A stretch of DNA of 64,000 bases from Candidatus Sungiibacteriota bacterium. Its GTDB lineage: Bacteria > Patescibacteriota > Minisyncoccia > Sungbacterales > HO2-52-23. Every line of letters starts with the position of its first letter. Within the stretch, counting starts at the first letter, position 1. The stretch covers positions 60,342 to 124,341 of the forward strand of contig JACPBG010000002.1 of NCBI GenBank assembly GCA_016180435.1. Direction: 5' to 3'. The notes beneath the pieces were generated by a model, which was given only the letters and a program-made list of their open reading frames with translations, was not told the origin of the DNA and ran no database searches. Shown here in pieces: positions 3-61,105 of this stretch. A program made the translations under genes and the position numbers.

Positions 3-947
3 CCTAACCCGGATGTGATGTGTAACCGTCATATTAAGTTCGGGCTGTTTCTTAAACGTGCTCTGAAAGAGGGGGCGGATTTTATAGCGACCGGACACTA
101 TGTGCGCTTAAGCGCAAGAACTAAGAGCTTAGAACTTAGAACTAAGAAAAATCTGATGCTAAGTTCTAAGTCCTATATTCTAAGTTCTGCGGCCGATGCC
201 GCCAAGGACCAGTCCTATTTCCTTTGGACTCTTGCGCAAGACCAATTAAAACATTGTCTTTTTCCGATCGGGGAATACACTAAGCCCGCGGTACGGGAAA
301 TGGCGCGAAAATTCGGTTTGCCGGTTGCGGAAAAGCCGGATTCGCAAGGAGTGTGTTTTATCGGGGAATTTGACATGAAAGAATTTTTAAAAAAGCGGAT
401 TCCAGAATCGCGCGGACCGGTTGTGACAACCAGCGGCAAAAAAGTGGGGGAGCATGAGGGGCTTTCGTTTTATACCATTGGACAGCGACATGGGATGGGG
501 ATTGGGGGCCGCCCCGCAGAGCGGGGCGAGCCTCGCCCCAAAGGGGCGGGCGGGATTCCATATTATGTCGTGGCTAAGGATTTTAAAACCGACACGCTTA
601 TTGTCGGAGAGGGGCCTTATGACGAGAAATTATTCAAGAAAGAACTTATCGCCACAAATGTAAATTGGATTTTCGGGAAAGAGCCAAAATTACCTTTAAA
701 ATGCGAGGCGCGAATTAGGTATCGCCAGCCGTTACAACGCTGTCGCGTTGAAGCAAATAAAGAACTTAGAACTAAGAACTTAGAAAGAAAACTAAGTTCT
801 AAGTTCTATATGCTAAATGCTTGCCGCGTCAAAGTTATTTTTGATGCGGTACAACGCGCCGTAACTCCCGGCCAGTCAGTGGTATTTTATCAGGGAGATG
901 AAATGTTGGGGGGCGGAATTATTTACCCCGTTAGAGATGCGGAATAA
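3..947 (+). CDS. mnmA: tRNA-specific 2-thiouridylase MnmA, 5'-truncated by the window edge
   Basis: The frame is open from nt 3. It carries the motifs NPDVMCNRHIKF, ATGHY, KDQSYFL, GQRHGMGIGG and TPGQSVVFY. It contains four repeat-derived segments (see findings). Confidence 0.9.
   Translation, partial: PNPDVMCNRHIKFGLFLKRALKEGADFIATGHYVRLSARTKSLELRTKKNLMLSSKSYILSSAADAAKDQSYFLWTLAQDQLKHCLFPIGEYTKPAVREMARKFGLPVAEKPDSQGVCFIGEFDMKEFLKKRIPESRGPVVTTSGKKVGEHEGLSFYTIGQRHGMGIGGRPAERGEPRPKGAGGIPYYVVAKDFKTDTLIVGEGPYDEKLFKKELIATNVNWIFGKEPKLPLKCEARIRYRQPLQRCRVEANKELRTKNLERKLSSKFYMLNACRVKVIFDAVQRAVTPGQSVVFYQGDEMLGGGIIYPVRDAE
116..189. repeat. R1 heptamer palindrome (TTAGAAC)n ... (GTTCTAA)n, in-frame inside mnmA
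   Basis: The sequence is agcttagaacttagaactaag ... gctaagttctaagtcc..ctaagttct. Confidence 0.85.
508..557. repeat. R2 GC-rich palindromic element, in-frame inside mnmA
   Basis: gccgccccgcagagcggggcgagcctcgccccaaaggggcgggcgggattc. It is near-identical to 54571-54621. Confidence 0.85.
759..830. repeat. R1 heptamer palindrome, second in-frame copy inside mnmA
   Basis: agaacttagaactaagaacttagaa ... ctaagttctaagttcta. Confidence 0.85.
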
Positions 948-1029
948 AATAATGCTGGCGTGGATACATTTGATTGCGGAACAGATATTATTCAAAGTTT
1001 TATCTTGTACTAAATCTCTAACGACGGGG
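926..1029. repeat. R7 element with terminal inverted repeats CCCCGTTAGAG / TCTCTAACG(A)CGGGG, overlapping the mnmA stop
   Basis: The left end lies in the last mnmA codons (YPVRDAE*). The right end is at 1015-1029. Confidence 0.7.
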
Positions 1030-1096
1030 TTGACTCTTAAATCGGCTTATGCTACATTGCGTCCAGTACTTTAATTTATATACAGAGGATAAAGTC

Positions 1097-10952: not shown

Positions 10953-11080
10953 TTTCAATTTCAGACACGACTCAACCGCTCCGGCGGCGGTCTCGCTAAG
11001 GGTCGGACAAATTTTCGTCCCGATTGCGATCGGGATGATCCAAGCAAATTTGTCCTCCCATTGTCTGAAATTTAAATTAT
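10950..11080 (+). repeat. R3 structured intergenic element, copy 1 (infA-rpmJ spacer)
   Basis: Outer stem TTTCAGACA/TGTCTGAAA, P2 stem ACCGC/GCGGT, conserved CTAAGGGTCGG, P3 stem GGACAAATTT/AAATTTGTCC, conserved CCTCCCATTG. Confidence 0.8.
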
Positions 11081-11106
11081 TTCCTCGCTTATTTTTTAAA
11101 AAATGT

Positions 11107-11223: not shown

Positions 11224-11240
11224 GGCTCTTACGAGCCAGC

Positions 11241-11306
11241 ATCAAGAACTAAGATTTTAGAACTTAGCAAATTTTCTAAGTTCTAAGTTCTGGGTTCTAA
11301 GTTCTA
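11241..11306. repeat. R1 heptamer palindrome (rpmJ-rpsM spacer)
   Basis: aagaactaagattttagaacttag ... ctaagttctaagttctgggttctaagttct, then GTG. Confidence 0.85.
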
Positions 11307-11309
11307 TTT

Positions 11310-11696: not shown

Positions 11697-11699
11697 AAT

Positions 11700-11786
11700 A
11701 AAGCACTTAGAACTTAGAACCTAGAACTTAGTAAATCTGCTAAGATCTAAGTTCTTGAATGCTAAGTTCTATGTTGCGAAGCAACA
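11700..11786. repeat. R1 heptamer palindrome plus GCGAAGC mini-hairpin (rpsM-rpsK spacer)
   Basis: agcacttagaacttagaacctagaacttag ... ctaagatctaagttcttgaatgctaagttct-atgttGCGAAGCaacat. Confidence 0.9.
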
Positions 11787-12230
11787 TTGGGTAAAAAGCG
11801 TATCATAACTAAATCTACCGAGTCATCCGAATCGAAAAAATCCGATAGCCAGCCGCCAGCCGGAATTTCGGTAACGCGGCGTGGCATACTGCGCGGTTGC
11901 GCTTATATTCAGGCAACTTATAATAACACCATTATTACCATAACCGACGAAAAGGGCGGCGTGATAGCGTGGTCTTCGGCCGGGTCCGTTGGATTTTCGG
12001 GAACCAAGAAAGCCACTCCGTTTGCAGCAGCGCGAGTCGCGGAATTCCTTGCTGAAAAAATGCGTAAAGCCGGTATTCAGGAGCTTATGGTTTTTGTAAA
12101 AGGGGTTGGATCAGGGCGTGATTCGGCGATTCGTGCGCTTGCCAATCAGGGGTTTGCCATTTCGCGCATCAAAGATATTACCCCCATCCCGCATAACGGG
12201 CCGAGACCCAGGAAACCAAGAAGAGTATAA
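11787..12230 (+). CDS. rpsK: 30S ribosomal protein S11
   Basis: TTG start directly after the GCGAAGC hairpin. The sequence shows [24 protein letters not shown] and [17 protein letters not shown]. Confidence 0.9.
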
Positions 12231-12323
12231 AGCACTTAGAACTTAGAACCTAGAACTTAGAATTTATAATTAAAGTATTTACTAAGTTCTAAATACTAAG
12301 ATCTAAGTTCTTTTGCGAAGCAA
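12231..12323. repeat. R1 heptamer palindrome plus GCGAAGC mini-hairpin (rpsK-rpsD spacer)
   Basis: agcacttagaacttagaacctagaacttagaa ... ctaagttctaaatactaagatctaagttct-tttGCGAAGCaa-ATG. Confidence 0.9.
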
Positions 12324-12944
12324 ATGCCAAAGGTATTAGAAAAAGTAGAAAGGCGTCTTGGCGAAAAACTCTTTTTAAAAGGGGATCGTTGCGCTGGGCC
12401 GAAGTGCGCGGCAGTTCGCCATCCGAGTCCTCCGGGGATTCACGGCAAAACCCGCCGTCGCGCTCCTTCGGAATTCGGACAATATCTGCAGGGAAAACAA
12501 AAGGTTCGTTTTCTGTACGGTCTTGACGATCGTGATTTAAATCGGTATGCTAAGAAAGCCGAATCAATGCGCGGCGCATTTGCCGCGAAATTTTTGCAAT
12601 TACTTGAGCGGCGTCTTGATAACGTGGTGTTTCGTTTGGGATTTACCGGGTCGCGCCGGTCAGCGCGCCAAGCCGTATCACACGGCCATATTAGGGTGAA
12701 TGGCCGGCGTGTCAGTGTGCCGTCGTATCAGGTTAAAATCGGTGAAGTTGTTTCCATAAATCCCGGCGCCCGGCAAAGTTCTCATTTTGCCGATTTGGAA
12801 CATCGCTTGAAAAAGTATACTCCGCCCGTTTGGCTCGCTTTGGAAAAGGATCAAGTTGCGGGCAAGGTTGTCGGGTCCGCCGAATCAGATATGTCCGGAA
12901 CGTCCGGCGAACTTATAAAAATAAAAGAGTTTTATTCGAGATAA
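12324..12944 (+). CDS. rpsD: 30S ribosomal protein S4
   Basis: The S4 domain reads LERRLDNVVFRLGFTGSRRSARQAVSHGHIRVNGRRVSVPSYQV. Confidence 0.92.
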   Translation: MPKVLEKVERRLGEKLFLKGDRCAGPKCAAVRHPSPPGIHGKTRRRAPSEFGQYLQGKQKVRFLYGLDDRDLNRYAKKAESMRGAFAAKFLQLLERRLDNVVFRLGFTGSRRSARQAVSHGHIRVNGRRVSVPSYQVKIGEVVSINPGARQSSHFADLEHRLKKYTPPVWLALEKDQVAGKVVGSAESDMSGTSGELIKIKEFYSR

Positions 12945-12954
12945 ACACTAGACA

Positions 12955-13074
12955 GTGATGCCAATCCGATGCGAATTTAATGCCAATTTGGCGAATTGCG
13001 AATGAATTTAAAGATTAGCAATTTGTAGATTAGCATTTTATTTGTAGATTTGCATCATTGCGTGCGAAGCATAT
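12955..13074. repeat. R4 palindromic element plus GCGAAGC mini-hairpin (rpsD-rpoA spacer)
   Basis: gtgatgccaatccgatgcgaatttaatgccaa...attagcaatttgtagattagca...tttgtagatttgcatcattgcgtGCGAAGCatat-ATG. Second copy at 29546-29671. Confidence 0.85.
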
Positions 13075-14054: not shown

Positions 14055-14194
14055 TTCGGCTAATTTGATTTCAGACACGACTCGGCGGCTCCGGCGGCCG
14101 CCTCGCTAAGGGTCGGACAAATTTTCGTCCCGATTGCGATCGGGACGATCCGAGCAAATTTGTCCTCCCATTGTCTGAAATCAAAATAGCCTCG
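14055..14194 (+). repeat. R3 structured intergenic element, copy 2 (rpoA-rplQ spacer)
   Basis: Same core as copy 1, but the P2 stem is changed to GGCGGC/GCCGCC. Confidence 0.8.
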
Positions 14195-14595: not shown

Positions 14596-14667
14596 AGAAC
14601 TTAGAACTTAGAACTTAGAACTTAGATATCTACTAAGTTTTAAATGCTAAGTTCTAAATGCTATGCG
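14596..14667. repeat. R1 heptamer palindrome (rplQ-rplM spacer)
   Basis: agaacttagaacttagaacttagaacttag ... ctaagttttaaatgctaagttctaaatgct, then a hairpin around the ATG. Confidence 0.9.
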
Positions 14668-15009
14668 ATGGAGCATCGCATTGATGCAGCTAATCAAATA
14701 CTCGGACGTCTGGCAACTCGCGTTGCGGTTCTTTTGCGCGGTAAAGATCGGCCTGATTTTGATCCGGCGCGTTTTTCCGATAACAAGGTGGCGGTTCATA
14801 ATACCGATAAAATGCGCGTGACCGGAAAGAAGATGCCGCAAAAAAAATATCGGCGGCATTCCGGTTACCCCGGCGGCTTGAAAGAAGAAGCGCTTGAGCG
14901 CCTTTTCGCACGCGACTCGCGTGAGGTTTTGCGCCGCGCGGTTTTAGGGATGCTCCCGAAAAATCGCCTGCGCAGTAGATGGATAAAGAATCTGATACTA
15001 CGTAAATAA
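14668..15009 (+). CDS. rplM: 50S ribosomal protein L13
   Basis: IDAANQILGRLATRVAVLLRGK and YRRHSGYPGGLK. The in-frame ATG at 14668 is preferred because the track start at 14644 lies inside the repeat element. Confidence 0.85.
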   Translation: MEHRIDAANQILGRLATRVAVLLRGKDRPDFDPARFSDNKVAVHNTDKMRVTGKKMPQKKYRRHSGYPGGLKEEALERLFARDSREVLRRAVLGMLPKNRLRSRWIKNLILRK

Positions 15010-15027
15010 CAAATGGTAAATGGCAGA

Positions 15028-15062
15028 CAACTAACAACTAACAACTAACAACTAACAACTTA
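15028..15062 (+). repeat. tandem heptamer (CAACTAA) x5 in the rplM-rpsI spacer
   Basis: caactaacaactaacaactaacaactaacaactta. Confidence 0.85.
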
Positions 15063-23841: not shown

Positions 23842-23964
23842 GCATTTCGTTTTCAAGACACGCAAATTTTTGCCAGCGCAAAAATTTGCTAAGGGTCGGC
23901 GAAGTTTTCCGCCAAAGGCGGAACCATGCAAACTTCGCCTCCCATTGTCTTGAAAACAAAATGC
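23842..23964 (+). repeat. R3 structured intergenic element, copy 3 (murA-mreB spacer), with compensatory changes
   Basis: Outer stem TTTTCAAGACA/TGTCTTGAAAA, P2 stem GCAAATTTTTGC/GCAAAAATTTGC, conserved CTAAGGGTCGG, P3 stem GGCGAAGTTT/AAACTTCGCC, conserved CCTCCCATTG. Confidence 0.8.
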
Positions 23965-24014
23965 TTCGCATAATTTCAATCTTTTGGTGAGAGGAGAGGA
24001 AAAGGAGCAATTTT

Positions 24015-27215: not shown

Positions 27216-28199
27216 GTGATTATCGGGCACGAACGGCAAATTGAATATCTGGAAAAAATCATAAGACGCGGGCGCATGTCCCACGCCTATTTATTTTTTG
27301 GTCCGGAACATGTAGGAAAATTCGCATTAGCCAAGGAAATTGCGCGTGTTTTAATGTGCCCGAATAAGAATAAGATCGGCGATGCCGGAGACGGATGCGC
27401 GGATTGCCGTCAAATTGAACAGGATATTCATCCCGGCGTAATAATTCTTGATATTGAACACACTCTTGTCTCCAAGAAAGAAATTCGTAAAGACATTCCG
27501 ATTGAAGATATACGGGAACTGAAACGCCGATTTTCTTTTGCTCCGGAGCAAGGAAAGTGGCGGATCGCTATAATTAATGAAGCGGAGAAATTAAGTGCCG
27601 AGGCCGCCAATGCGTTTTTGAAATTATTGGAAGAGCCGGGAGCGCGGACTCTTTTTTTGCTGGTAAGTTCGACGTATGATTCGGTTTTGCCGACCATTGT
27701 TTCGCGCGCCGAGCCGCTTAGATTTTCTTTGGTGTCAGATGCGATTTTGCGTGAATTTTTAGAACAAAAAAAGATAAGTCAAGATCAACGGGAATCTATT
27801 TTGAAACTTGCGGCCGGGCGCTCCGGGATTGCCATAAGATCCGTCGAGGATCCGTCTTATTTCATAAAACAGAAAAAAATACGGGATGAAATTGAATCAA
27901 TCCTCTCGTGCAAAGATATTCCGTCGGCTCTGGCCCTTACCGAGCGGGTTGCCAAAGACAAGGAGATGTTGAAAACCGCGGCTGATTTTTTGATCCGTTC
28001 ATTGCGCGATAACATCATCGCAACCATTCTGGAGTCCAAGACGTATCATACCAAAGTGGGACGGCTTAAAGAGATCCACCGCATTCTTTCCATAATAGAG
28101 TCCACCAACGTCAATCCGCGTCTGGCTATGGATGTGATGTTGATGGAGGCGTTAACCACTAACAGCACGAACAGCTTTGTCTATGGGTTTAGGTTGTAG
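27216..28199 (+). CDS. holB: DNA polymerase III subunit delta'
   Basis: HAYLFFGPEHVGK, a Zn-module-like CPNK..C..C, and SRAEPLRF. The last ~14 codons and the stop lie inside a repeat element. Confidence 0.8.
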   Translation: MIIGHERQIEYLEKIIRRGRMSHAYLFFGPEHVGKFALAKEIARVLMCPNKNKIGDAGDGCADCRQIEQDIHPGVIILDIEHTLVSKKEIRKDIPIEDIRELKRRFSFAPEQGKWRIAIINEAEKLSAEAANAFLKLLEEPGARTLFLLVSSTYDSVLPTIVSRAEPLRFSLVSDAILREFLEQKKISQDQRESILKLAAGRSGIAIRSVEDPSYFIKQKKIRDEIESILSCKDIPSALALTERVAKDKEMLKTAADFLIRSLRDNIIATILESKTYHTKVGRLKEIHRILSIIESTNVNPRLAMDVMLMEALTTNSTNSFVYGFRL

Positions 28200-28274
28200 A
28201 TGCCGGTATGGCGGGAGGGTTTTAGGCATAAGGCCCTAAAACTAATACCCTAAAACCGGACCGGCTTCTAAAAC
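28157..28274 (+). repeat. R6 element, copy 1, overlapping the holB 3' end
   Basis: cactaacagcacgaacag...gggtttaggttgtagatgcc...gggttttaggcataaggccctaaaac...cttctaaaac. An inverted copy lies at 43143-43264. Confidence 0.85.
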
Positions 28275-28292
28275 ATACACCTCATAACAGTT

Positions 28293-29543
28293 TTGTTGGT
28301 GTTGTTTGCGAAATTGAGAATTTTACTTGCTATTTTAGTTGTTATACTTGTAATTGTCGTTGTCTTCCCGTTTGTTTTGAATATGGCAGGTTTATCTGCG
28401 CCGCAGTTTGCTTTCGTAGGAGATGCGGCAAGCGAACGCGCCGGTGAAGCCGGCATATGGCGTTCGGAAAACGGCGGCATATCCTGGAAAGAAATAAGAT
28501 TTCAAACCGGAGGCAACCCATTGCCGTTATCCATCCATGATTTGACGTTCCATCCCCATTATCGCGATACAGTATTGATGGGAACGCGGGGAAATGGACT
28601 TTGGAAAAGCGATAATAACGGCATGTCATGGAAAAGAATCAATGACCGCGCGGGTATTTTGCAAAATAATGCGGATATTTACGGGGCGGCAGTAAGTCCG
28701 GCAAGCCCCGCGGTTTGGTATGTGGCTGCATATCAAAACGGCCGCGGGGAAGTATTGAAGAGTTTGGACGGCGGATCAAGTTTTGCAAAGATATATCATT
28801 TAAACGGGGGCGGAATTCCGATTGTCGGCCTATTCGCATATGCCGATAATTCTGAGCGGGTTCTTATTGCTACGGCCAATGGCGGTTTTTTGCAGACAAG
28901 CGACGGAGGCGCAAGTTGGGGATCCGTTTCATGGAGTTCCGGAAATATTACAGCCATACGCGTGAACCCGGCAAACCCGGACGAAATAATTATTTGGATA
29001 GCCGGAGGTAAAATAATGCGCTCGCAAGATGGCGGCCTGACTTGGCGTAGTGTTAATTCACCGGACCGGGGCGAAACTTCCGGGATGTTTTCGTATAATG
29101 GTCCGCGCGTGGGACAAGAATCCGCCGGTTTGAGTACTGATTCCTTGCCGCCGGATAATTCATCCAAGCCGGGTTTTCAATTTGATCTTGGAGCGATTTT
29201 TTCACCCTTGAATAAGGGATCCGATGATTTTATAATAAGTCCATCGGATAGGAGAGCGCGTTATTTAAAATCCGGAAGTAATATTTATCGTTCGGGAGAC
29301 GGCGGCGGCTCATGGAATCCGGTCCACACCTCGCTTTCTCCGCGTACGCGTTTGGATGCGGTTGCCGTTGATCCGTTCAATGCTGATAATGTTTTTTTTA
29401 CAGCGTCCGGGGAATTTCATAAGAGTACGGATGGCGGCGCTACGTGGGAAATGCGCGATTTGCCGCCCAATATGAAGGGAAGAATTAGAATATTACGGAT
29501 AAGTACGCATAATCCAGAGATAATGTTTGCGGTGACACAATAA
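28293..29543 (+). CDS. membrane-anchored BNR/Asp-box repeat protein (beta-propeller-like)
   Basis: N-terminal TM helix plus at least 7 SxDxGxxW-type boxes (SENGGISW, SDNNGMSW, SLDGGSSF, TSDGGASW, SQDGGLTW, SGDGGGSW, STDGGATW). The start codon is uncertain. Confidence 0.7.
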   Translation: MLVLFAKLRILLAILVVILVIVVVFPFVLNMAGLSAPQFAFVGDAASERAGEAGIWRSENGGISWKEIRFQTGGNPLPLSIHDLTFHPHYRDTVLMGTRGNGLWKSDNNGMSWKRINDRAGILQNNADIYGAAVSPASPAVWYVAAYQNGRGEVLKSLDGGSSFAKIYHLNGGGIPIVGLFAYADNSERVLIATANGGFLQTSDGGASWGSVSWSSGNITAIRVNPANPDEIIIWIAGGKIMRSQDGGLTWRSVNSPDRGETSGMFSYNGPRVGQESAGLSTDSLPPDNSSKPGFQFDLGAIFSPLNKGSDDFIISPSDRRARYLKSGSNIYRSGDGGGSWNPVHTSLSPRTRLDAVAVDPFNADNVFFTASGEFHKSTDGGATWEMRDLPPNMKGRIRILRISTHNPEIMFAVTQ

Positions 29544-29545
29544 AA

Positions 29546-29671
29546 GCAGTGATGCCAATCCTATGCGAATTTAATGCCAAGCTGGCGAATTGCGAATAAT
29601 TATTAGCATAATTAGCAATTTGTAGATTAGCATAAGATTTGTAGATTTGCATCATTGCGGTGCGAAGCACA
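29546..29671. repeat. R4 palindromic element plus GCGAAGC mini-hairpin, directly upstream of frr
   Basis: Near-identical to 12955-13074. It ends ...catcattgcggtGCGAAGCaca-ATG. Confidence 0.85.
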
Positions 29672-35603: not shown

Positions 35604-35705
35604 CCCCGTTAGAAAGAAACAAACATAGTAGTTCCAAAATTCCAAGCAATTTTTAACACAAGCCACGAATACGGCAATTAAAAACCTTTGTTTTTTTCTA
35701 ACGGG
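35604..35705. repeat. R7 element (CCCCGTTAGAAAG...TTTCTAACGGGG)
   Basis: About 20-bp terminal inverted repeats enclose an unrelated AT-rich core. Confidence 0.75.
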
Positions 35706-35723
35706 GTTGAAAGGCCATCCATA

Positions 35724-35869: not shown

Positions 35870-35998
35870 AGAAAATTCGAAATTCGAATAATGAAATTCG
35901 AAACAAATCCCAAATCATAAATTCAAATGTTTCAAACGTTTAGAATTTAGAATTTTGATATTGTTTAGAATTTAGAATTTAGAGTTTCGGATTTAGTA
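35870..35998. repeat. R8 heptamer palindrome (GAAATTC)n ... (TTAGAAT)n
   Basis: gaaaattcgaaattcgaataatgaaattcgaaac ... gtttagaatttagaatttt..gtttagaatttagaatttagagtttcgg. Confidence 0.8.
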
Positions 35999-36003
35999 TT
36001 ATA

Positions 36004-36204
36004 GTGGCTTTTCAAGATCAACAGGGAGGATTCCAGGATGATCGCCCGAAATACGACATCACCTGTTCCAAATGTGGTAATCAAGGAACGGTTCCGTTCC
36101 CGCCCACACCGGGACGCGATGTCTTCTGCCGCGATTGTTTCCGTCAGAATAATCCGAATCCCCGCCGCGAATTTCGCGGACGCGGAGGATACGGATCAAG
36201 ATAA
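36004..36204 (+). CDS. small zinc-ribbon protein with a CxxC-x17-CxxC motif
   Basis: GTG start. The motif is CSKC-17 residues-CRDC, followed by an Arg/Gly-rich tail. Confidence 0.5.
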   Translation: MAFQDQQGGFQDDRPKYDITCSKCGNQGTVPFPPTPGRDVFCRDCFRQNNPNPRREFRGRGGYGSR

Positions 36205-36301
36205 ATCTAAAGGCCGGGCATTGTCCGGCTTTTAGATTTATCAATCTCTAAGTTCTAATCTCTAATTTCTAATAAAACACTAAAAATGTTATTATAGCAG
36301 A

Positions 36302-38617: not shown

Positions 38618-38822
38618 GTTGTTTTCATCGCGGCGTGTCATTCAGGTCCTGGAGCGCCAGGGCTTTGTTTTTATTTCTCAACGGGGAAGTCACGCCAAAT
38701 ATCGCAAAACCGGTCCGCATACATTTACCGCGATTGTCCCTGTTGGGAAAAAGGAGATTCCACACGGAACTTTTCGTTCTATTGTACGCCAATCAGGATT
38801 ACAGGAGGAGAATTTTGAATAA
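38610..38822 (+). CDS. hicA: HicA mRNA-interferase toxin
   Basis: VIQVLERQGFVFISQRGSHAKYRK and KKEIPHGTFRSIVRQSGL. Confidence 0.8.
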   Translation: MPKLFSSRRVIQVLERQGFVFISQRGSHAKYRKTGPHTFTAIVPVGKKEIPHGTFRSIVRQSGLQEENFE

Positions 38823-40593
38823 AATTATAAGCAATCAAGAAACAAAAATCTGTCAAAATTGTAAAAACGAGTTCACCATTGAATCGGTTGACTTTGCATT
38901 CTACGAAAAAATCCGTGTGCCGCCGCCCACCTGGTGTCCGGAGTGTAGGATGGTGCGGAGGATGGTGTTTAGAAACGAGCGCAAACTTTTTCGCATAAAA
39001 AGCGCGAAATCCGGCAAAGAAATTTTATCGTTAAATCCGCCGGAAGCCGGTGTTGCGGTTTATGATGAAAAAGAATGGTGGTCGGATGATTGGGATGCCC
39101 GAGAATACGGGAGAGAATATGATTTCTCGCGGCCGTTTTTTGATCAGTTTTTCGAGTTGTCGAGGGTTGTTCCGCGTTACAGCCGCGATGTCCTGAATAT
39201 GGTCAATAGCGATTATTCCGCCAATGCCGCTGATCTAAAAAATTGTTACCTTTTGTTTAACTCAAATTACAGCGAGGATTCTTCATACGGAAACGCCGTG
39301 GATAAATCACATTTTTGTTTTGATAATTCGCATATTCAAAAATGTGAAAGATGTTACGAGTCATTTTGGCTGGCAAATTGTTACCAGACCCATTTTTCCT
39401 CCAAGTGCGAGGATTGCCAGAGTGTATGGTTCTCAAAAAATTTACGCGGATGCAGCAATTGTTTCGGATGCGTGAATCTGCGCGGGAAAAATTACTGCAT
39501 TTTCAACAAGCAATATTCCAAAGAAGATTATATCAAAAAGTTGGAATCGTTTTCTTTGCATACTTTTTCCGGAATCACGGCAGTAAAGAAAACGGCGCTG
39601 GATTTTTGGTTAAAATTTCCCAACAAATATATTGAGGGCGTTAAAAATCTAAATTCATCCGGGGAATATGTTACGCATTCCAAAAATGTGCATCATGGTT
39701 ATTTGGTGCGTGAAGGGGAAGATTTGCGCTATGTCCAGTATGTGCAGCTGCCGCCCTCTAAAGATCTGATGGATATAACTGTCGGAGGGAACGGCATGGA
39801 ATTATCATATGAAAATGCGACAAGCGGTTGGGGCAGGGTTTATAACTTGAAATTTTGTGCGGAATGCTGGCCGGAGGTTCGGGATATGGAATATTCAATG
39901 TTTTGTACCTCATCCTCCAATCTTTTCGGGTGCGTGGGTCTTCATAAAAAAGAATTTTGCATTTTAAATAGGCAATATACGAAAGAATCCTTTGACCAGC
40001 TCAAGATAAAGATTATTAAACATATGGATGAAATGCCATATGTTGATTCGCGCGGCCGGGCGTATAAATATGGGGAGTTTTTTCCGCCGGAATTGTCGCC
40101 GTTTGCCTATAATCAAACTATTGCCATTGAGCATTTTCCTTTAACCAAAGAAGAAGCCGAGAAAGCGGGGTACAGATGGCAGGAGCCGACAAGGCGCGAA
40201 TATGAAATAACCATGACTGTGGATGAAATTCCGGATTCGATCAGGGATATCCGCGAAGACATTCTAAAAGAAGTTATTCAATGCGCGAGTTGCAAACGGG
40301 CGTATCGCCTGATACGTTCCGAATTGGAATTTTTGAAGAAAGAAGGCATTCCGGCGCCCAGAGTTTGCATTGACTGCCGGCATGACGAGCGTATCAGCCA
40401 AAGAAACAAAGCAATTTTTTATTCGCGCCGATGCGCGTGCAGCGGCCAAAATTCCGGGAACGGGGCGTATAAAAATACTGCTACTCATTTCCATGGTCCA
40501 AATCAGTGCCTTAATGAATTTAAAACAAGTTATGCGCCGGACAGGCCGGAGATAGTGTATTGCGAAGCGTGCTACAATTCTGAAGTTGTATAA
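38815..40593 (+). CDS. large Cys-rich multi-zinc-ribbon protein, paralog P1 (592 aa)
   Basis: TTG at 38815 lies 4 nt after AGGAGGAG and overlaps the hicA stop by 8 nt. The N-terminus reads CQNC...FYEKIRVPPPTWCPECR, and the C-terminus has CASC...CIDCR and YCEACYNSEVV. Colinear with P2. Confidence 0.7.
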   Translation: MNKIISNQETKICQNCKNEFTIESVDFAFYEKIRVPPPTWCPECRMVRRMVFRNERKLFRIKSAKSGKEILSLNPPEAGVAVYDEKEWWSDDWDAREYGREYDFSRPFFDQFFELSRVVPRYSRDVLNMVNSDYSANAADLKNCYLLFNSNYSEDSSYGNAVDKSHFCFDNSHIQKCERCYESFWLANCYQTHFSSKCEDCQSVWFSKNLRGCSNCFGCVNLRGKNYCIFNKQYSKEDYIKKLESFSLHTFSGITAVKKTALDFWLKFPNKYIEGVKNLNSSGEYVTHSKNVHHGYLVREGEDLRYVQYVQLPPSKDLMDITVGGNGMELSYENATSGWGRVYNLKFCAECWPEVRDMEYSMFCTSSSNLFGCVGLHKKEFCILNRQYTKESFDQLKIKIIKHMDEMPYVDSRGRAYKYGEFFPPELSPFAYNQTIAIEHFPLTKEEAEKAGYRWQEPTRREYEITMTVDEIPDSIRDIREDILKEVIQCASCKRAYRLIRSELEFLKKEGIPAPRVCIDCRHDERISQRNKAIFYSRRCACSGQNSGNGAYKNTATHFHGPNQCLNEFKTSYAPDRPEIVYCEACYNSEVV

Positions 40594-43101: not shown

Positions 43102-43142
43102 ATAATTGCGAACAGCGCGAACCGAATTGTTATAGAGTGTAA

Positions 43143-43264
43143 GTTTTAGAAGCCAGTCTGGTTTTGGGGTATTAGTTTTAAGGCCTTATACCTAAAACCC
43201 CATGACTATACGGGCATCTACAACCTAAACCCATAGACAATTCAGATGTTAGTGCTGTTAGTGT
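43143..43264 (-). repeat. R6 element, copy 2 (inverted relative to copy 1)
   Basis: The reverse complement aligns along its whole length with 28157-28274, with scattered substitutions. Confidence 0.85.
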
Positions 43265-52465: not shown

Positions 52466-52553
52466 AAGCACTTAGAACTTAGAACTTAGAACTTAGAAAA
52501 ATAACTAAGATCTAAGTTCTTAATGCTAAGTTCTACGTTGCCGAGCAACGTTG
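52466..52553. repeat. R1 heptamer palindrome plus terminal mini-hairpin (upstream of trxB)
   Basis: agcacttagaacttagaacttagaacttagaa ... ctaagatctaagttcttaatgctaagttct-acgttgccgagcaacgt. Confidence 0.9.
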
Positions 52554-52637
52554 TTGTATGACGTTATCATCATCGGCGGCCCGCCCCGATTTCTGTCGGG
52601 GCGAGGCTCGCCCACAACCTTATGTTATATGATGTAA
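52554..52637 (+). pseudogene. relic 5' end of trxB (LYDVIIIGG...) disrupted by a GC-rich element
   Basis: TTG-TTG-tat-gac-gtt-atc-atc-atc-ggc-ggc runs into the R2-like ccgccccgatttctgtcggggcgaggctcgccc and stops at 52635-37. It is out of frame with the real trxB start at 52622. Confidence 0.6.
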
Positions 52638-54015: not shown

Positions 54016-55410
54016 ATGTCAACATTCTTCGAAAACACTAAAAAATTTATTGAAGACGCCGTGCGTATCGCCTATATTCCGGGCGATATTTTAGGACGTT
54101 TGGAAAAACCGGATAAAGTATTAGAATTTGAAATTGCGGTTGGTGATAACCCCGTTAGAGACCCGATGCCTATGGCATCGGCAGACGCCGAAGGGCGTCT
54201 TGTCTCTAACGGGGCGAGAAAATTTCAAGCATGGCGTGTCCAACATAATAACATCCTTGGTCCTTACAAAGGTGGAATCCGCTATCATCCGGATTCAAAT
54301 TTGGATGAGGTAAAAGCGCTGGCCTCTTTGATGACTTTGAAAACCTCCCTTGCCGGGATTCTTTTTGGCGGAGCTAAAGGCGCGGTAAGAGTTGATCCGC
54401 GTAAATTATCCCTGCAGGAATTGGAAGAATTATCGCGCATGTACGTCCGTGCAATTTGGCAAGAAATCGGGCCGGAAAAAGATGTTCCGGCGCCGGATGT
54501 CGGCACTACCCCGCAAATTATGGATTGGATGACGGACGAATATTCGAAACTCATCGGAAAATTGAGTCCGGCCGCCCAGCAGAGTGGGGCGAGCCTCGCC
54601 CAAAATGGGCGGGCGGGATTCACTGGAAAATCTATAGAAAAAGGCGGTTCCCGCGGCCGCGATATTGCCACCGGTTTTGGCGGGTATGTAATTTTGAGAG
54701 AATTTTTAAATCTAAGTTCTAAGTTCTTAGTTCTAAGTTCTGAATCGCAACTAGTGGTTGCGATTCAAGGTTTCGGTAATGTCGGCGCAAATATCGCTAA
54801 AATCTTATATGAAAAAGGATTTAAAATCGTGGCCATTTCCGATTCCAAGGGGGCGCTTTATGAGGAAGATGGCATTGATATTAAAAAAGTTTTGGATGTA
54901 AAAGAAAAAACCGGCATTATAGATCGCAACAAGTGCTATGCGGTTTCCGAGGAGCGGCTGGCATCCGGTACTCCCTGTCGCGAATTTACCAACGATGATT
55001 TATTGCAAATGCCGGTGGATATTTTGATTCCGGCTGCGCTTGAAAATGTTATCAATGAAGCGAACGCGGAAAAAATTAGAGCTAAAGTAATTTTGGAAAT
55101 GGCCAATGGTCCGGTTACTCCCGAAGCTGAAAAAATATTCACTAAGCGAGGAATTGAGGTGCTACCTGATATTTTAGCCAATAGCGGGGGAGTGGTTGGA
55201 TCGTATTTTGAATGGGTGCAAAATCGTAAAGGAGAGCAATGGAGCGAGGAGGAGGTGCTTGCGAAAATTGATGAAAAATTGACCGAGGCGTTTCAGAGTG
55301 TACAAAAAATTAAGGAGGAATGCAATGTTTCGTGGCGTATGGCATCATACGTACGGGCGATTAAGAGGGTTGCGGAAGGGAATAAAAATCCGCCTTTTGG
55401 GGCGGTATAA
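54016..55410 (+). CDS. gdhA: Glu/Leu/Phe/Val-family glutamate dehydrogenase
   Basis: GPYKGGIRYHP, GGAKGAV, QGFGNVG and ANGPVTPEA. It contains three repeat-derived in-frame inserts. Confidence 0.9.
   Translation: MSTFFENTKKFIEDAVRIAYIPGDILGRLEKPDKVLEFEIAVGDNPVRDPMPMASADAEGRLVSNGARKFQAWRVQHNNILGPYKGGIRYHPDSNLDEVKALASLMTLKTSLAGILFGGAKGAVRVDPRKLSLQELEELSRMYVRAIWQEIGPEKDVPAPDVGTTPQIMDWMTDEYSKLIGKLSPAAQQSGASLAQNGRAGFTGKSIEKGGSRGRDIATGFGGYVILREFLNLSSKFLVLSSESQLVVAIQGFGNVGANIAKILYEKGFKIVAISDSKGALYEEDGIDIKKVLDVKEKTGIIDRNKCYAVSEERLASGTPCREFTNDDLLQMPVDILIPAALENVINEANAEKIRAKVILEMANGPVTPEAEKIFTKRGIEVLPDILANSGGVVGSYFEWVQNRKGEQWSEEEVLAKIDEKLTEAFQSVQKIKEECNVSWRMASYVRAIKRVAEGNKNPPFGAV
54150..54214. repeat. 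R7-type element in-frame inside gdhA
   Basis: CCCCGTTAGAGAC-ccgatgcctatggcatcgg-cagacgccgaagggcgtct-TGTCTCTAACGGGG. Confidence 0.8.
54571..54621. repeat. R2 GC-rich element in-frame inside gdhA
   Basis: gccgcccagcagagtggggcgagcctcgcccaaaatgggcgggcgggattc. Compare 508-557. Confidence 0.85.
54709..54766. repeat. R1 right arm plus terminal hairpin, in-frame inside gdhA
   Basis: aatctaagttctaagttcttagttctaagttct-GAATCGCAAC-tagt-GGTTGCGATTC. Confidence 0.8.
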
Positions 55411-57785: not shown

Positions 57786-59060
57786 ATGCGTCAGTCCATA
57801 TTATTTGGAAAAACGCTCCGTAAGGGGCCCAAAGACGAGATTTCAAAAAATGCCAACCTTTTGGTTCGCGGCGGTTTTGTGGCCAAAGAAATTGCCGGAA
57901 TATATTCTTTTTTACCGCTAGGTCTCCGGGTGCTTGATAAGATAGCCAGGATTATACGCGGAGAAATGAATGATGTTTTGGGAGCACAGGAGATTCTGAT
58001 GCCCGCACTCCACCCGATCGAGAATTACCAAAAAACCGGACGCGAAAAAATCGATGTGCTTTTTCACACGGAACTTGCATCAGGCGGCAAGTTGGTGCTT
58101 GGCCAAAGCCATGAGGAGATCGTGGTGCCCCTGGCAAAGCATTTTATTTCATCCTACCGCGATCTGCCGCTTGGGCTTTATCAAATTCAGACCAAATTTC
58201 GCAATGAACTTCGCGCTAAATCAGGCATGCTCCGCGGCCGCGAATTTATGATGAAAGATCTTTATTCATTTCATGCGGATGAAAATGATTTTGAAAAATA
58301 TTATGAGCGGGCGAAGATCGCATATAAAGATATTTTTGAAAAAGCCGGTTTAGGCGGACAAACCTATCTTACATTTGCCTCCGGCGGGACATTTTCCAAG
58401 TACTCCCATGAATTTCAGACCATAACCGAGGCCGGAGAAGACACCATTTATCTTTGTAAAGAATGTAAAATTGCGATAAATGACGAAATTATCGGGGAAC
58501 AGAAAAATTGCCCGCAATGCAATGCGCCTATAGCCAAATTATTGCAAGAAAAAGCAATCGAGGTCGGGAATATTTTTCCCTTAAAAACCAGATTTTCGGA
58601 CGCCTTTGGCTTGTCTTATATCGACAAATCAGGCCAGACGCATCCTGTGGTAATGGGATGCTACGGGATAGGATTGGGACGCGTTTTGGGCGCGATTGTA
58701 GAGGTACATAACGATAAAAACGGCATTATTTGGCCGGAAAGTGTGGCGCCGTATAAAGTGCATCTGATAGAACTTAGAACTAAGAATTTAGAACTTAGTG
58801 ATGATCCGGTACGCGGGGCAGCCGAAAAGTTATATAACCATCTGCTTGCTAAAGGAATTGAAGTGTTATACGATGACCGCGACGATAAAACAGCCGGAGA
58901 GAAATTCACGGATGCGGATTTGATAGGAATCCCGTGGAGAGTGGTTATTTCGGAGAAAACCGTTCAGCGAAATGCAATAGAAGTTAAAAAGCGTGATTCA
59001 CCCGGGAGTGAGTTGATGTCTGTGGTAAGTTTTCTCCAGAATTTAAAAGTAAAAATGTAA
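57786..59060 (+). CDS. proS: proline--tRNA ligase (no INS editing domain)
   Basis: Class II motifs RNELRAKSGMLRGREFMMKD and GCYGIGLGR, plus an anticodon-binding C-terminus. It contains a heptamer-repeat insert. Confidence 0.9.
   Translation: MRQSILFGKTLRKGPKDEISKNANLLVRGGFVAKEIAGIYSFLPLGLRVLDKIARIIRGEMNDVLGAQEILMPALHPIENYQKTGREKIDVLFHTELASGGKLVLGQSHEEIVVPLAKHFISSYRDLPLGLYQIQTKFRNELRAKSGMLRGREFMMKDLYSFHADENDFEKYYERAKIAYKDIFEKAGLGGQTYLTFASGGTFSKYSHEFQTITEAGEDTIYLCKECKIAINDEIIGEQKNCPQCNAPIAKLLQEKAIEVGNIFPLKTRFSDAFGLSYIDKSGQTHPVVMGCYGIGLGRVLGAIVEVHNDKNGIIWPESVAPYKVHLIELRTKNLELSDDPVRGAAEKLYNHLLAKGIEVLYDDRDDKTAGEKFTDADLIGIPWRVVISEKTVQRNAIEVKKRDSPGSELMSVVSFLQNLKVKM
58768..58800. repeat. R1 left arm in-frame inside proS
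   Basis: atagaacttagaactaagaatttagaacttag, translated IELRTKNLELS. Confidence 0.8.
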
Positions 59061-60999: not shown

Positions 61000-61105
61000 C
61001 CCCGTTAGAACGGGCGTTCCGCGACCAGCTTATGTGAGCATTATATTACTCCCATCAGCTATTGCTATTTCCACCACTGACAGAGTCAGCGGTGTTCTAA
61101 CGGGG
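61000..61105. repeat. R7 element in the mreC-mreD spacer
   Basis: CCCCGTTAGAAC ... GTTCTAACGGGG, enclosing an unrelated core. Confidence 0.8.

What the first reader, a model, noticed from the sequence alone, without database searches (positions are those of the whole stretch)
116..1029. mnmA is a mosaic: four repeat-element segments from three families sit inside one housekeeping ORF without breaking it
- Segments 116-189 and 759-830 are TTAGAAC/GTTCTAA heptamer palindromes. They translate as RTKSLELRTKKNLMLSSKSYILSS and NKELRTKNLERKLSSKFYMLN.
- Segment 508-557 is the GGGGCGAGCCTCGCCCC element, translated RPAERGEPRPKGAGG.
- The last six codons plus the stop lie in the left terminal repeat of a CCCCGTTAGA element. 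Its right end is at 1015-1029.
- All these families also occur intergenically in the window, so these are insertions rather than native sequence.
- Rickettsia palindromic elements are the known precedent for in-frame ORF invasion. Here several unrelated families hit the same gene.
Basis: partly seen in the sequence, partly recalled or inferred. Interest (0 to 1): 0.7.

Follow-up and report, generated by a model that had tools for sequence, protein, structure and literature searches.

The report
Palindromic repeats read through inside mnmA
A housekeeping tRNA-modification gene of an uncultivated Sungbacteria (CPR) bacterium carries four short hairpin-forming repeat elements from three dispersed families that stay in frame, and the same families sit inside many other essential genes of this phylum, much like the palindromic elements of Rickettsia.

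Summary
ORF 3-947 is the C-terminal 314 codons of MnmA from a Candidatus Sungbacteria MAG. It holds two (TTAGAAC)n/(GTTCTAA)n palindromes (117-188, 756-818) and a 42-nt GC-rich double hairpin (510-551). Its last six codons and stop lie in a CCCCGTTAGAG...CTCTAACGGGG inverted-repeat element (926-1030).

All three families recur in the window far above chance. The allele was assembled identically from several sequencing runs.

Against solved MnmA structures the internal segments are pure insertions. They coincide with the only low-confidence stretches of an otherwise confident model.

They behave as DNA elements, not protein modules:
- The GC element is read in a different frame in the window's glutamate dehydrogenase, and in either orientation inside seven other protein families in metagenomes.
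- Intergenic heptamer copies have stops in all six frames; the two mnmA copies keep only the used frame open.
- Inserts shared with orthologs are conserved at synonymous sites far above the host gene.

New: the two heptamer sites are longer than the shortest orthologs in most Sungbacteria MnmA (104/117 and 81/112), with different repeat-like peptides. How the elements move is unknown, and no transposase is in the window. This is an RPE-like phenomenon in a new phylum with new element types.

The parts
3..947 (+). mnmA (tRNA 2-thiouridine(34) synthase), C-terminal 314 codons; the gene starts upstream of the window (full protein P0001, 408 aa)
   Evidence: Pfam PF03054, PF20259 and PF20258. PDB MnmA matches at E 3e-63. 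100% identical to P0001, annotated as Candidatus Sungbacteria MnmA. AF2 model mean pLDDT 89.3; Foldseek target-normalised TM 0.90-0.91 to 2hma and 2det.
117..188 (+). Heptamer palindrome, site 1: left arm (AGAACTN)n 117-152, right arm (CTAAGTT)n 159-188. Translated RTKSLELRTKKNLMLSSKSYILSS. It sits at the tip of the beta-hairpin after GHYVR.
   Evidence: Period-7 arrays. Hairpin -30.3 kcal/mol, z -5.5. 14-residue gap in PDB MnmA. pLDDT 59-73 at residues 131-150. Only 1 of 6 frames is open. Shared with P0002 and P0009, with 16/17 identical codons among identical residues against 141/283 in the rest of the gene.
510..551 (+). GC-rich double-hairpin element, 42 nt = 14 codons, 83% GC, translated RPAERGEPRPKGAG. 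It is inserted in the GIGG^GIPYY loop.
   Evidence: Clean 14-codon gap in syntenic ortholog L007. 92%-identical copy at 54570-54621, read in another frame. Open in 6 of 6 frames. Metagenome copies lie inside other housekeeping ORFs.
756..818 (+). Heptamer palindrome, site 3, translated NKELRTKNLERKLSSKFYMLN. It sits at the tip of the C-terminal beta-barrel hairpin after RYRQPLQ. Weaker complementarity extends to 745-830.
   Evidence: Period-7 arrays. Hairpin -27.7 kcal/mol, z -5.1. 20-residue gap in PDB MnmA. pLDDT about 60 at residues 346-369. 1 of 6 frames open. P0002 has a different heptamer palindrome (AGTATCA/CTTAATA) at the same place.
926..1030 (+). Inverted-repeat element CCCCGTTAGAGAT...ATCTCTAACGACGGGG. 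It supplies the last six codons (PVRDAE) and the TAA stop (945-947) of mnmA. The putative -35 TTGAC of the next gene follows directly.
   Evidence: family far above chance. (about 92-nt clean indel against L007; empty site ATTATTGCTTA^TTGAC). (-29.5 kcal/mol).
11237..11307 (.). Intergenic TTAGAAC palindrome, just upstream of the S13 gene
   Evidence: 0 of 6 frames open.
11699..11770 (+). Intergenic TTAGAAC palindrome starting 2 nt after the S13 stop. The element end ATAAAGCAC supplies the TAA. A small GC hairpin follows.
12228..12313 (+). TTAGAAC palindrome between S11 and S4; its first three bases are the S11 stop codon
14593..14663 (+). TTAGAAC palindrome between L17 and L13; its first three bases are the L17 stop codon
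52464..52536 (+). TTAGAAC palindrome overlapping the stop of the DUF3105 gene. Its first 37 nt are 89% identical to mnmA site 1, including the non-repeat loop GAAAAAT.
54150..54214 (+). CCCCGTTAGAG...CTCTAACGGGG element inside the GDH ORF (54016-55410), translated PVRDPMPMASADAEGRLVSNG
   Evidence: (-49.2 kcal/mol, z -8.3). (insertion absent from most of 119 GDH homologs).
54573..54614 (+). GC element inside the GDH ORF, read in a different frame from mnmA (AAQQSGASLAQNGR)
   Evidence: (14-residue gap in T. maritima GDH)..
54709..54743 (+). Half (right-arm) heptamer array inside the GDH ORF (NLSSKFLVLSS), followed by a small hairpin
58767..58799 (+). Half (left-arm) heptamer array inside the ProRS ORF (57786-59060), translated IELRTKNLELS
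   Evidence: (5-residue gap in solved ProRS)..
52580..52616 (-). Partial GC element just upstream of the thioredoxin-reductase-like gene, next to a remnant copy of that gene's first codons
35604..35706 (.). Intergenic CCCCGTTAGAA...TTCTAACGGGG element, flanked by TTGA on both sides
   Evidence: (-36.2 kcal/mol, z -6.9).
61000..61105 (.). CCCCGTTAGAA...TTCTAACGGGG element 1 nt after the MreC stop, flanked by TAAA on both sides

Best explanation
The four segments belong to three families of short, non-autonomous, hairpin-forming repeat elements that are dispersed through Sungbacteria genomes.

The families:
- Heptamer-array palindromes of about 70 nt.
- A 42-nt GC-rich double hairpin.
- An element of about 65-105 nt bounded by CCCCGTTAGA(R) inverted repeats.

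How they come to sit in genes (inferred):
- Copies land, or are copied, both between genes and inside genes.
- Between genes they sit directly on stop codons and often supply the stop.
- Inside essential genes, purifying selection keeps only copies that add a multiple of three bases, have no stop in the host frame, and fall at the tip of a surface beta-hairpin or loop. The enzyme fold and catalytic residues stay intact, and the element is translated as an extra low-complexity loop.
- The GC element is pre-adapted to this. It is 14 codons long and open in all six frames.
- The heptamer elements are not. A perfect (TTAGAAC)3 has a stop in every frame. The ORF copies carry stop-removing changes (TAG to AAG, TAA to TAT).

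Shown here:
- Repeat-family membership.
- Insertion status against orthologs.
- Frame and orientation independence.
- Stop purging.
- DNA-level conservation.
- Location in low-confidence loops.

Inferred, not shown:
- That the inserts are translated.
- That spread is by transposition or gene conversion driven by a factor encoded elsewhere.
- That intergenic copies act as mRNA 3' hairpins.
For: Family membership far above chance:
-.
- The heptamer copies share non-repeat features: the left end ATAAAG(C/A)AC, the loop AAAT(C)TG, and an irregular TNNNT break in the right arm.

Insertion status:
- Gaps in PDB MnmA at all three internal segments.
- Clean empty sites in syntenic L007 for the GC and 3' elements.
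- The closest GDH homolog (78% identity, 419 aa against 464) lacks the TIR-element and GC-element inserts of the window's GDH; the heptamer half-array was not separately resolved.

DNA element rather than peptide module:
- The GC element is read as RPAERGEPRPKGAG in mnmA and AAQQSGASLAQNGR in GDH.
- In low-GC metagenome contigs it lies inside HolB, UvrD/AddB-like, RNase III (opposite orientation), an MBL-fold protein (opposite orientation), TopA, trigger factor and an LTD protein. Stems are conserved and loops vary.
- The inverted-repeat family is read as PVR...SNG or PLE...LTG in different MnmA and GDH orthologs.

Selection for read-through:
- 5 of 5 intergenic full heptamer copies have 0 of 6 open frames. 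Both mnmA copies have exactly 1 of 6, the frame in use.
- Read in the upstream gene's frame, intergenic copies give ELRT*NLE where ORF copies give ELRTKNLE.

Nucleotide-level conservation:
- Third-position identity in shared inserts is 0.79-1.0 against 0.35-0.50 in the rest of the gene.
- Identical codons among identical residues are 16/17 against 141/283, Fisher p = 2e-4.
- Presence is patchy on the MnmA tree.

Structure:
- Low pLDDT at the four segments (the sole stretch under 50, residues 361-365, lies in the site-3 insert), with brief milder dips near residues 41-50 and 201-220.
- The core superposes on solved MnmA at a target-normalised TM of 0.90-0.91.
- The residues of the alignment's invariant columns are present in this protein.

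Not an artefact:
- Identical sequence in independent assemblies.
Against: - No transposase or recombinase was found among 50 window proteins. The mobility mechanism is unknown.
- Target-site duplications are seen for only some copies of one family.
- In two relatives (L007, 12 kb; L009, 17 kb) period-7 arrays are concentrated in mnmA, with no palindromic intergenic copy seen (L009 has two short non-mnmA arrays). Part of the heptamer signal could therefore arise in place.
- Tandem (TTAGAAC)3 occurs sporadically in many phyla.
- No RNA or peptide data show that the inserts persist in mRNA and protein.
- Low AF2 confidence does not prove that the loops are functionless or clear of the tRNA.
Confidence: 0.8

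Rival explanations
1. The heptamer palindromes were generated in place. Ancient hypervariable hairpin loops of MnmA expand and turn over by replication slippage of 7-nt units and by intrastrand template switching, which makes one arm the complement of the other. They were not inserted by mobile elements.
For: - Site 1 is longer than 20 residues in 104 of 117 MnmA homologs and site 3 longer than 24 in 81 of 112. The underlying heptamer units differ: TTAGAAC, AGTATCA, GACAAGN, TCAATTT, AAGAATC.
- In L007 and L009 period-7 arrays are concentrated in mnmA, with no palindromic intergenic copy.
- (TTAGAAC)3 arrays arise sporadically in many phyla.
Against: - At least nine loci in this 64-kb window share the same unit plus the same non-repeat terminus, loop and right-arm irregularity.
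- The site-1 copy is shared by P0001, P0002 and P0009. It is absent from their nearest tree neighbours P0005, P0006 and P0114. It is far more conserved than synonymous sites of the gene.
- This does not explain the GC element or the inverted-repeat element, which have clean empty sites.
Confidence: 0.2
2. The segments are adaptive protein features, such as extended arms that contact tRNA or partners. They are selected at the amino-acid level, and the DNA repeats are incidental.
For: - The sites are expanded in most orthologs.
- The GEPRP peptide is nearly identical in orthologs only 62-66% identical overall.
Against: - The same DNA is read in other frames and orientations elsewhere, giving unrelated peptides.
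- In shared inserts, amino-acid identity is no higher than in the rest of the gene while synonymous positions are conserved. That is the reverse of protein-level selection.
- Peptides at a given site are unrelated between orthologs.
- pLDDT is low in the inserts.
Confidence: 0.08
3. The hairpins are not translated. They are either removed from the transcript or skipped by ribosomes, as with translational bypassing of gene 60 or of mitochondrial byp elements.
For: Each segment forms a very stable RNA hairpin of -28 to -38 kcal/mol.
Against: - Every ORF copy adds a multiple of three bases and is stop-free in the host frame.
- Intergenic copies of the same family have stops in all frames. Elements that are skipped would not need this.
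- No Rfam family, intron or intein signature was found.
Confidence: 0.04
4. Assembly artefact: repeats were collapsed or chimerically joined into the gene.
For: Repeats are a classic cause of misassembly in metagenomes.
Against: - Identical sequence, with 0 mismatches over up to 4673 nt, in six separately assembled contigs from different runs, plus the NCBI MAG.
- Orthologs from other samples carry related inserts at the same codons.
Confidence: 0.01

Closest known systems
Rickettsia palindromic elements (RPEs; Ogata et al. 2000, 2002, as summarised in PMC10969869)
   Same: - Several families of palindromic repeats are inserted in frame into unrelated housekeeping genes without inactivating them.
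- They are translated as extra peptide segments at positions compatible with the fold.
- They also occur in non-coding DNA.
- The host is a small-genome, host-dependent bacterium.
   Different: - RPEs are about 100-150 bp, each family encodes a conserved peptide, and they are confined to Rickettsia (PMC10969869).
- The elements here are 42-105 nt, in a CPR phylum, with different architectures: tandem-heptamer arms, a double hairpin, and inverted termini with a variable core.
- The same element is used in several frames and both orientations.
- The same structural sites are occupied by different families across a whole phylum.
REP/BIME elements mobilised by RAYT transposases (own knowledge; PMC3184786 for small repeats in general)
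   Same: - Short GC-rich imperfect palindromes with conserved stems and variable loops.
- Located just downstream of stop codons inside operons.
- Family sequence conserved across species.
   Different: - REPs are extragenic by definition.
- No RAYT/IS200-like gene was seen in the window.
- The GC element was found almost only inside ORFs.
Bacterial MITEs found intragenically (ERIC and others, Delihas 2007; Correia; cited in PMC10969869)
   Same: The CCCCGTTAGA family has 10-13-bp terminal inverted repeats. Some copies have short flanking direct repeats (TTGA, TAAA, TGGGC). Some make in-frame fusions and supply stop codons.
   Different: - The interior is highly variable in length and sequence between copies.
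- Flanking repeats are inconsistent.
- No parent IS is known.
Mitochondrial GC clusters, double-hairpin elements and repetitive hairpin-forming elements (PMC4478555, PMC2800124) and byp elements
   Same: Small GC-rich hairpin elements spread through an AT-richer compact genome and occasionally sit inside coding regions.
   Different: - Those are organellar.
- Byps are skipped by the ribosome rather than read.
- The elements here stay in frame and stop-free.
Cyanobacterial STRR heptamer tandem repeats and small dispersed repeats (own knowledge: Mazel 1990; Elhai 2008)
   Same: A 7-nt tandem unit forms the basis of dispersed repeats, and small elements nest within other repeats.
   Different: - STRRs are mainly intergenic direct arrays.
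- Here two opposed arrays form a hairpin and are translated.
Coding palindromes in Nematomorpha mitochondrial genes (PMC6649704)
   Same: Long inverted repeats embedded in protein-coding genes and kept in frame.
   Different: According to that paper's abstract, both arms there encode conserved parts of the protein. Here the arms encode dispensable inserted loops.

Membership tests
Rickettsia palindromic elements (RPE) | Palindromic repeat able to form a hairpin, present in many copies | tested here: met
Rickettsia palindromic elements (RPE) | In-frame insertion into unrelated housekeeping ORFs without disruption | tested here: met
   MnmA, GDH and ProRS in the window. HolB, TopA, RNase III, trigger factor and a UvrD-like protein in metagenomes.
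Rickettsia palindromic elements (RPE) | Insert positions on the protein surface, compatible with the fold | tested here: met
   The AF2 model is confident except mainly at the inserts (brief milder dips elsewhere). They sit at hairpin tips, and the core matches 2hma and 2det at a target-normalised TM of 0.90-0.91. Distance to bound tRNA was not measured.
Rickettsia palindromic elements (RPE) | About 100-150 bp elements, each family encoding one conserved peptide; genus Rickettsia | tested here: not met
   Elements are 42-105 nt. The same element is read in two or more frames and both orientations. The host is Candidatus Sungbacteria. Direct sequence comparison with RPE consensus sequences was not done.
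REP/BIME (RAYT-associated) | Short imperfect GC-rich palindrome with conserved stem and variable loop | tested here: met
   The GC element's stems are identical across hits, while loops vary: AAA, AGA, CTT, TTT; TTCG, GGAG, TCCG, AAGG.
REP/BIME (RAYT-associated) | Extragenic location | tested here: not met
   Two of three window copies, and all 10 low-GC metagenome hits, lie inside long open reading frames (one, 131 aa, without a Pfam match).
REP/BIME (RAYT-associated) | Cognate RAYT (IS200/IS605-like Y1 transposase) in the genome | tested here: inconclusive
   None was found among 50 window proteins. The rest of the genome was not available.
MITE | Terminal inverted repeats | tested here: met
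   CCCCGTTAGA(R)...(Y)TCTAACGGGG in 4 window copies and in L009 and L129. This does not apply to the other two families.
MITE | Target-site duplication of fixed length | tested here: inconclusive
   TTGA/TTGA (35604), TAAA/TAAA (61000), TGGGC/TGGGC (L129) and TTGA between tandem copies (L009). By contrast, TTTA/TTGA at mnmA and none at GDH.
MITE | Derivation from a full-length IS with matching termini | not tested
   No IS was available to compare, and no transposase lies in the window.
Programmed translational bypass elements (gene 60, byps) | The element interrupts the frame or carries stops and is skipped between matched take-off and landing codons | tested here: not met
   All ORF copies are 3n long and stop-free in the host frame.
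Simple-sequence (heptamer) contingency repeats | Perfect tandem array whose unit-number changes shift the frame and switch the gene | tested here: not met
   The ORF arrays are degenerate (73-88% matches), are arranged as opposed arms, and sit in housekeeping genes. The allele is identical in all contigs.

The most novel reading that the evidence does not exclude
Sungbacteria, and probably other CPR bacteria, host an undescribed community of hairpin elements specialised for living inside essential genes.
- One member is a 42-nt GC-rich double hairpin that is exactly 14 codons long and open in all six frames.
- These elements integrate preferentially at existing DNA hairpins.
- As a result, the tips of particular beta-hairpins in conserved enzymes (MnmA after GHYVR and after RYRQPLQ; GDH core columns 42-47, 164-169 and 366) act as heritable landing pads. 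Successive families nest in and replace one another there across the phylum.
- Sequence conservation above synonymous sites would then reflect recognition by a trans-acting hairpin-specific enzyme, or a nucleic-acid-level function.
Probability: 0.3. Interest if true: 0.75.

Novelty: new variant of a known kind. Interest (0 to 1): 0.62.

Why it matters
- In-frame palindromic invaders of essential genes have been treated as a near-unique oddity of Rickettsia. Finding the same phenomenon in the Candidate Phyla Radiation suggests it is a recurrent outcome of reductive, host-dependent genome evolution. The elements here are different, and the phenomenon spans many genes and many genomes.
- It gives a concrete explanation for many of the low-complexity insertions that inflate CPR proteins and complicate their annotation, alignment and phylogeny.
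- It offers natural experiments on which loops of conserved enzymes tolerate insertions.
- The six-frame-open 14-codon GC element and the stop-purged heptamer palindromes are easy to search for. They could serve as markers for recombination or horizontal exchange among co-occurring CPR populations.
- I found no paper describing this in CPR in four full-text searches. That is absence in a limited library, not proof of novelty.

Tried and rejected
- Genome-collection scan for TTAGAACTTAGAACNTAGAAC. It shows only that the 7-mer array itself is not lineage-specific, and could not give a genome-wide copy count.
- Rfam at gathering thresholds and a tRNA scan of the whole window: nothing. The hairpins are not known RNA families.
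- My own hairpin scan at score 14 or above was too strict. It returned 6 loci and was not used for counts.
- Alignment A3 included a wrongly guessed coordinate range for P0009. That row was ignored.
- Integron attC sites were considered for the CCCCGTTAGA family because of the GTTAGAG/CTCTAAC cores. This was rejected because the order of the core sites is inverted relative to attC (RYYYAAC...GTTRRRY) and the bases do not fit the consensus. This rests on my own knowledge.
- DNA uptake sequences were considered and set aside. Density is only about 1 per 6-20 kb and the elements are long.
- Inteins and introns were rejected on size and on the absence of any matching Pfam or Rfam signature.
- One metagenome hit (L137, 70% GC, arginase) was judged a chance or native match and excluded.
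- A search for a mobilising enzyme among 50 window proteins found none.
Full report
**What is there**

The window begins inside a gene. Reading frame 3-947 (+) gives 314 residues. They match the three Pfam domains of tRNA 2-thiouridylase MnmA and the solved MnmA structures 9hlv, 2hma and 2der at E about 1e-62. The protein is 100% identical to the C-terminal part of P0001 (408 aa), annotated as MnmA of a Candidatus Sungbacteria MAG of the Candidate Phyla Radiation.

- Two palindromes built from opposed arrays of the heptamer TTAGAAC/GTTCTAA, at 117-188 and 756-818.
- A GC-rich element at 510-551 (83% GC in a window of 44.5% GC).
- An element bounded by CCCCGTTAGAGAT (926-938) and ATCTCTAACGACGGGG (1015-1030). 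It contains the last six codons and the stop of the gene.

Each family recurs elsewhere in the window far above shuffled expectation: 41 against 0.32, 6 against 0.08, and 7 against 0.49 matches. Each segment folds into a stable hairpin.

**Not an artefact**

The same protein is encoded on 11 contigs. The six I retrieved come from six different sequencing runs. They are identical to the window over their whole overlap, with 0 mismatches over up to 4673 nt.

**Insertions relative to orthologs**

- Against solved MnmA from Firmicutes and Proteobacteria, the three internal segments fall in alignment gaps of 14, 9 and 20 residues.
- The closest ortholog with conserved gene order is P0002 on L007 (70% identity). 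It has a clean 14-codon gap at the GC element.
- L007 also has a clean gap of about 92 nt that starts right after the conserved ...GGGII. Its empty site reads ATTATTGCTTA^TTGAC. The element therefore displaced the original last two codons and stop, and it now abuts the TTGAC -35-like box of the next gene.
- An AlphaFold model built on 119 homologs is confident overall (mean pLDDT 89.3). Confidence drops mainly at residues 131-150, 261-280 and 346-369 and at the C-terminal tail, which are the four segments, apart from brief milder dips near residues 41-50 and 201-220. Segments 1 and 3 sit at the tips of beta-hairpins.
- The core superposes on 2hma and 2det with a target-normalised TM-score of 0.90-0.91. 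All invariant residues of the family are present, including the PP-loop and both catalytic cysteines.

**DNA elements, not protein modules**

Four lines of evidence support this.

1. Frame and orientation independence.
   - The 52-nt GC-element region in mnmA is 92% identical to a copy inside the window's glutamate dehydrogenase gene, but it is read there in a different frame. The peptides are RPAERGEPRPKGAG and AAQQSGASLAQNGR.
   - A metagenome scan for the element's core returned 11 hits. One lay in a 70%-GC arginase gene and was probably chance.
   - The other ten were in contigs of 35-39% GC, and all lay inside long open reading frames: DNA polymerase III delta', a UvrD/AddB-like helicase-nuclease, RNase III, an MBL-fold protein, topoisomerase I, trigger factor, an LTD-domain protein, and one 131-aa frame with no Pfam match. 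Two were in the opposite orientation.
   - The parts of the element not fixed by my search pattern show conserved stems and variable loops.
   - The consensus is 42 nt, exactly 14 codons, and is free of stops in all six frames.
2. Stop purging in the heptamer family.
   - A perfect (TTAGAAC)3 contains TAG in every frame.
   - The five full intergenic copies in the window have 0 of 6 open frames.
   - The two mnmA copies have exactly one open frame, the one in use.
   - Read in the frame of the upstream gene, intergenic copies give ELRT*NLE. The ORF copies in mnmA and in ProRS give ELRTKNLE.
3. Nucleotide-level conservation.
   - The site-1 palindrome is shared with P0002 and P0009. Within it, identical residues use identical codons in 16 of 17 cases, against 141 of 283 in the rest of the gene (Fisher p = 2e-4).
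   - The GC element shared with P0008, P0003 and P0072 has third-position identity of 0.79, against 0.35-0.42 elsewhere.
   - Amino-acid identity inside the inserts is no higher than outside. That is the opposite of what protein-level selection gives.
4. Patchy distribution on the tree.
   - On a neighbour-joining tree of the MnmA core, P0001 groups with P0002, P0005 and P0006, while P0009 groups with P0114.
   - The site-1 TTAGAAC insert is absent from P0005, P0006 and P0114.
   - The GC element is absent from all of P0001's nearest neighbours but present in eight scattered orthologs.
   - Either the elements insert repeatedly at the same codon, or they are exchanged or homogenised between genomes, or their nucleotide sequence is itself under selection.

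**Wider than one gene**

In the same window:
- The glutamate dehydrogenase gene (54016-55410) carries all three families in frame.
- The ProRS gene carries a half heptamer array.
- A 574-aa ORF carries a (GAAATCC)n array read as EIRNPKHEIR.

Most of 119 GDH homologs are 410-425 aa, against 464 here. The closest (78% identity) lacks the inverted-repeat-element and GC-element inserts. Other orthologs carry inverted-repeat-family inserts (PVR...SNG, or APLENL...SLTG in seven sequences) or other inserts at the same core columns.

In MnmA the picture is more extreme:
- The segment between GHYxR and KDQ is longer than 20 residues in 104 of 117 homologs. It ranges from 13 to 80 residues.
- The segment after RYRQ is longer than 24 residues in 81 of 112 homologs.
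- The peptides are mutually unrelated and repeat-like.

Where I fetched the DNA, these were again heptamer palindromes, but with other units: AGTATCA/CTTAATA, GACAAGN/ATGTCAC, TCAATTT/AAATTGA. One had a small GC hairpin nested exactly in the loop of an AT-rich palindrome.

The inverted-repeat family also occurs in frame at a fourth MnmA site. It is read in two different frames in P0008 and P0059. In P0008 it is flanked by a TGGGC direct repeat.

**Intergenic copies**

- The heptamer palindromes lie in the spacers of the S13-S11-S4-RpoA-L17-L13 ribosomal gene cluster and after a DUF3105 gene.
- Four of them begin with the stop codon of the upstream gene. The shared left end ATAAAG(C/A)AC supplies the TAA. 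The same sequence is read through as N-K-E in mnmA site 3.
- Most are followed by a second small GC-stem hairpin.
- There is no T-run, so they are not canonical intrinsic terminators. A role as mRNA 3' hairpins is inference only.

**Mechanism**

The best-supported reading is as follows:
- These are non-autonomous hairpin elements that spread through the genome.
- Inside essential genes they survive only as in-frame, stop-free passengers in permissive loops.

How they move is open:
- Pfam scans of 50 window proteins found no transposase.
- Only the inverted-repeat family shows MITE-like hallmarks. Its termini are clear. Its 4-5-nt flanking repeats appear at some copies (TTGA, TAAA, TGGGC) but not all.
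- For the heptamer family, local slippage and template switching could contribute to turnover. In two relatives period-7 arrays are concentrated in mnmA, with no palindromic intergenic copy, and (TTAGAAC)3 arrays appear sporadically in many phyla.
- That does not account for at least nine loci in this window sharing non-repeat termini and loops.

**Comparison with what is known**

Functionally this is the Rickettsia palindromic element phenomenon, with several families in frame in unrelated housekeeping genes (PMC10969869). It is not a member of those families:
- The sizes are 42-105 nt rather than about 100-150 bp.
- The architectures differ.
- One element is read in several frames and in both orientations.
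- The host belongs to another phylum.

It also shares features with these known elements:
- REPs: stem conservation and a position after stop codons.
- Intragenic MITEs.
- Mitochondrial GC clusters and double-hairpin elements (PMC4478555, PMC2800124).
- Cyanobacterial heptamer repeats.

Four full-text searches found no description of this in CPR bacteria.

**Verdict**

I rate it a new variant of a known kind, of moderate to high interest. The main gaps are direct proof of translation and the identity of the mobilising mechanism.

Noticed in passing
window 52550-52660: Just upstream of the thioredoxin-reductase-like gene (start 52622, MLYDVIVVGGGPA) lies a second, out-of-frame, synonymously diverged copy of its first codons (..YDVIIIGG). 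It runs straight into a partial GC element and then a stop. It looks like a gene start disrupted by the element and then replaced or re-initiated downstream.
   Followed up: partly
window 10958-11083, 14068-14193, 23888-23967: A 120-nt intergenic repeat in three copies; the first two are 93% identical. It contains an internal GGACAAATTT/AAATTTGTCC inverted repeat. The copies lie upstream of the S13, L17 and MreB genes. There is no Rfam match.
   Followed up: no
window 12953-13062 and 29547-29659: Another intergenic repeat of about 110 nt, 94% identical between copies and rich in GCGAAT/GCCAAT/TAGATT motifs. One copy lies between S4 and rpoA, the other upstream of the ribosome recycling factor gene.
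   Followed up: no
window 28177-28309 and 43108-43240: A 133-nt inverted pair, 83% complementary, with the arms 14.8 kb apart.
   Followed up: no
window 38635-40593 and 41377-43101: Two neighbouring large ORFs (652 and 574 aa) without Pfam hits. They are paralogs with internal duplications (direct repeats with spacing 462 and 2538-2547 nt). The second carries the in-frame (GAAATCC)n array 42595-42626.
   Followed up: no
window 35870-36275: An 800-nt intergenic region packed with several heptamer arrays of different units: AAATTCG, TTTAGAA, AATCTCT. A CCCCGTTAGA element lies next to it at 35604-35706.
   Followed up: partly
window 15027-15060: A perfect (ACAACTA)x4.9 tandem array in the 57-nt spacer between the L13 and S9 genes. 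S9 itself has a 78-residue N-terminal extension ahead of its Pfam domain.
   Followed up: no
window 54741-54765, 11772-11784, 12314-12326, 14664-14682, 52536-52552: Each heptamer palindrome is followed by a small GC-stem hairpin, for example GTTGC-GAA-GCAAC. In GDH this small hairpin lies in codons for the conserved strand before the GxGxxG motif (ESQLVVAIQ).
   Followed up: partly
L009 16951-17232: In another Sungbacteria genome, CCCCGTTAGA...TCTAACGGGG elements occur as a head-to-tail tandem run, each separated by TTGA. The second and third copies have the same interior.
   Followed up: partly
window 926-936, 61000-61011 compared with the heptamer unit: The terminal repeat CCCCGTTAGA(A/G), which is CCCCGTTAGAAC at 61000, contains the TTAGA(AC) core of the heptamer family. 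The two families may share a recognition motif.
   Followed up: no
L008 and L001-L006 (sample SRR12113384): P0009, whose mnmA shares the site-1 TTAGAAC insert although its core is closer to P0114, comes from the same sample as one P0001 contig. Exchange of the segment between co-occurring populations is therefore possible.
   Followed up: no
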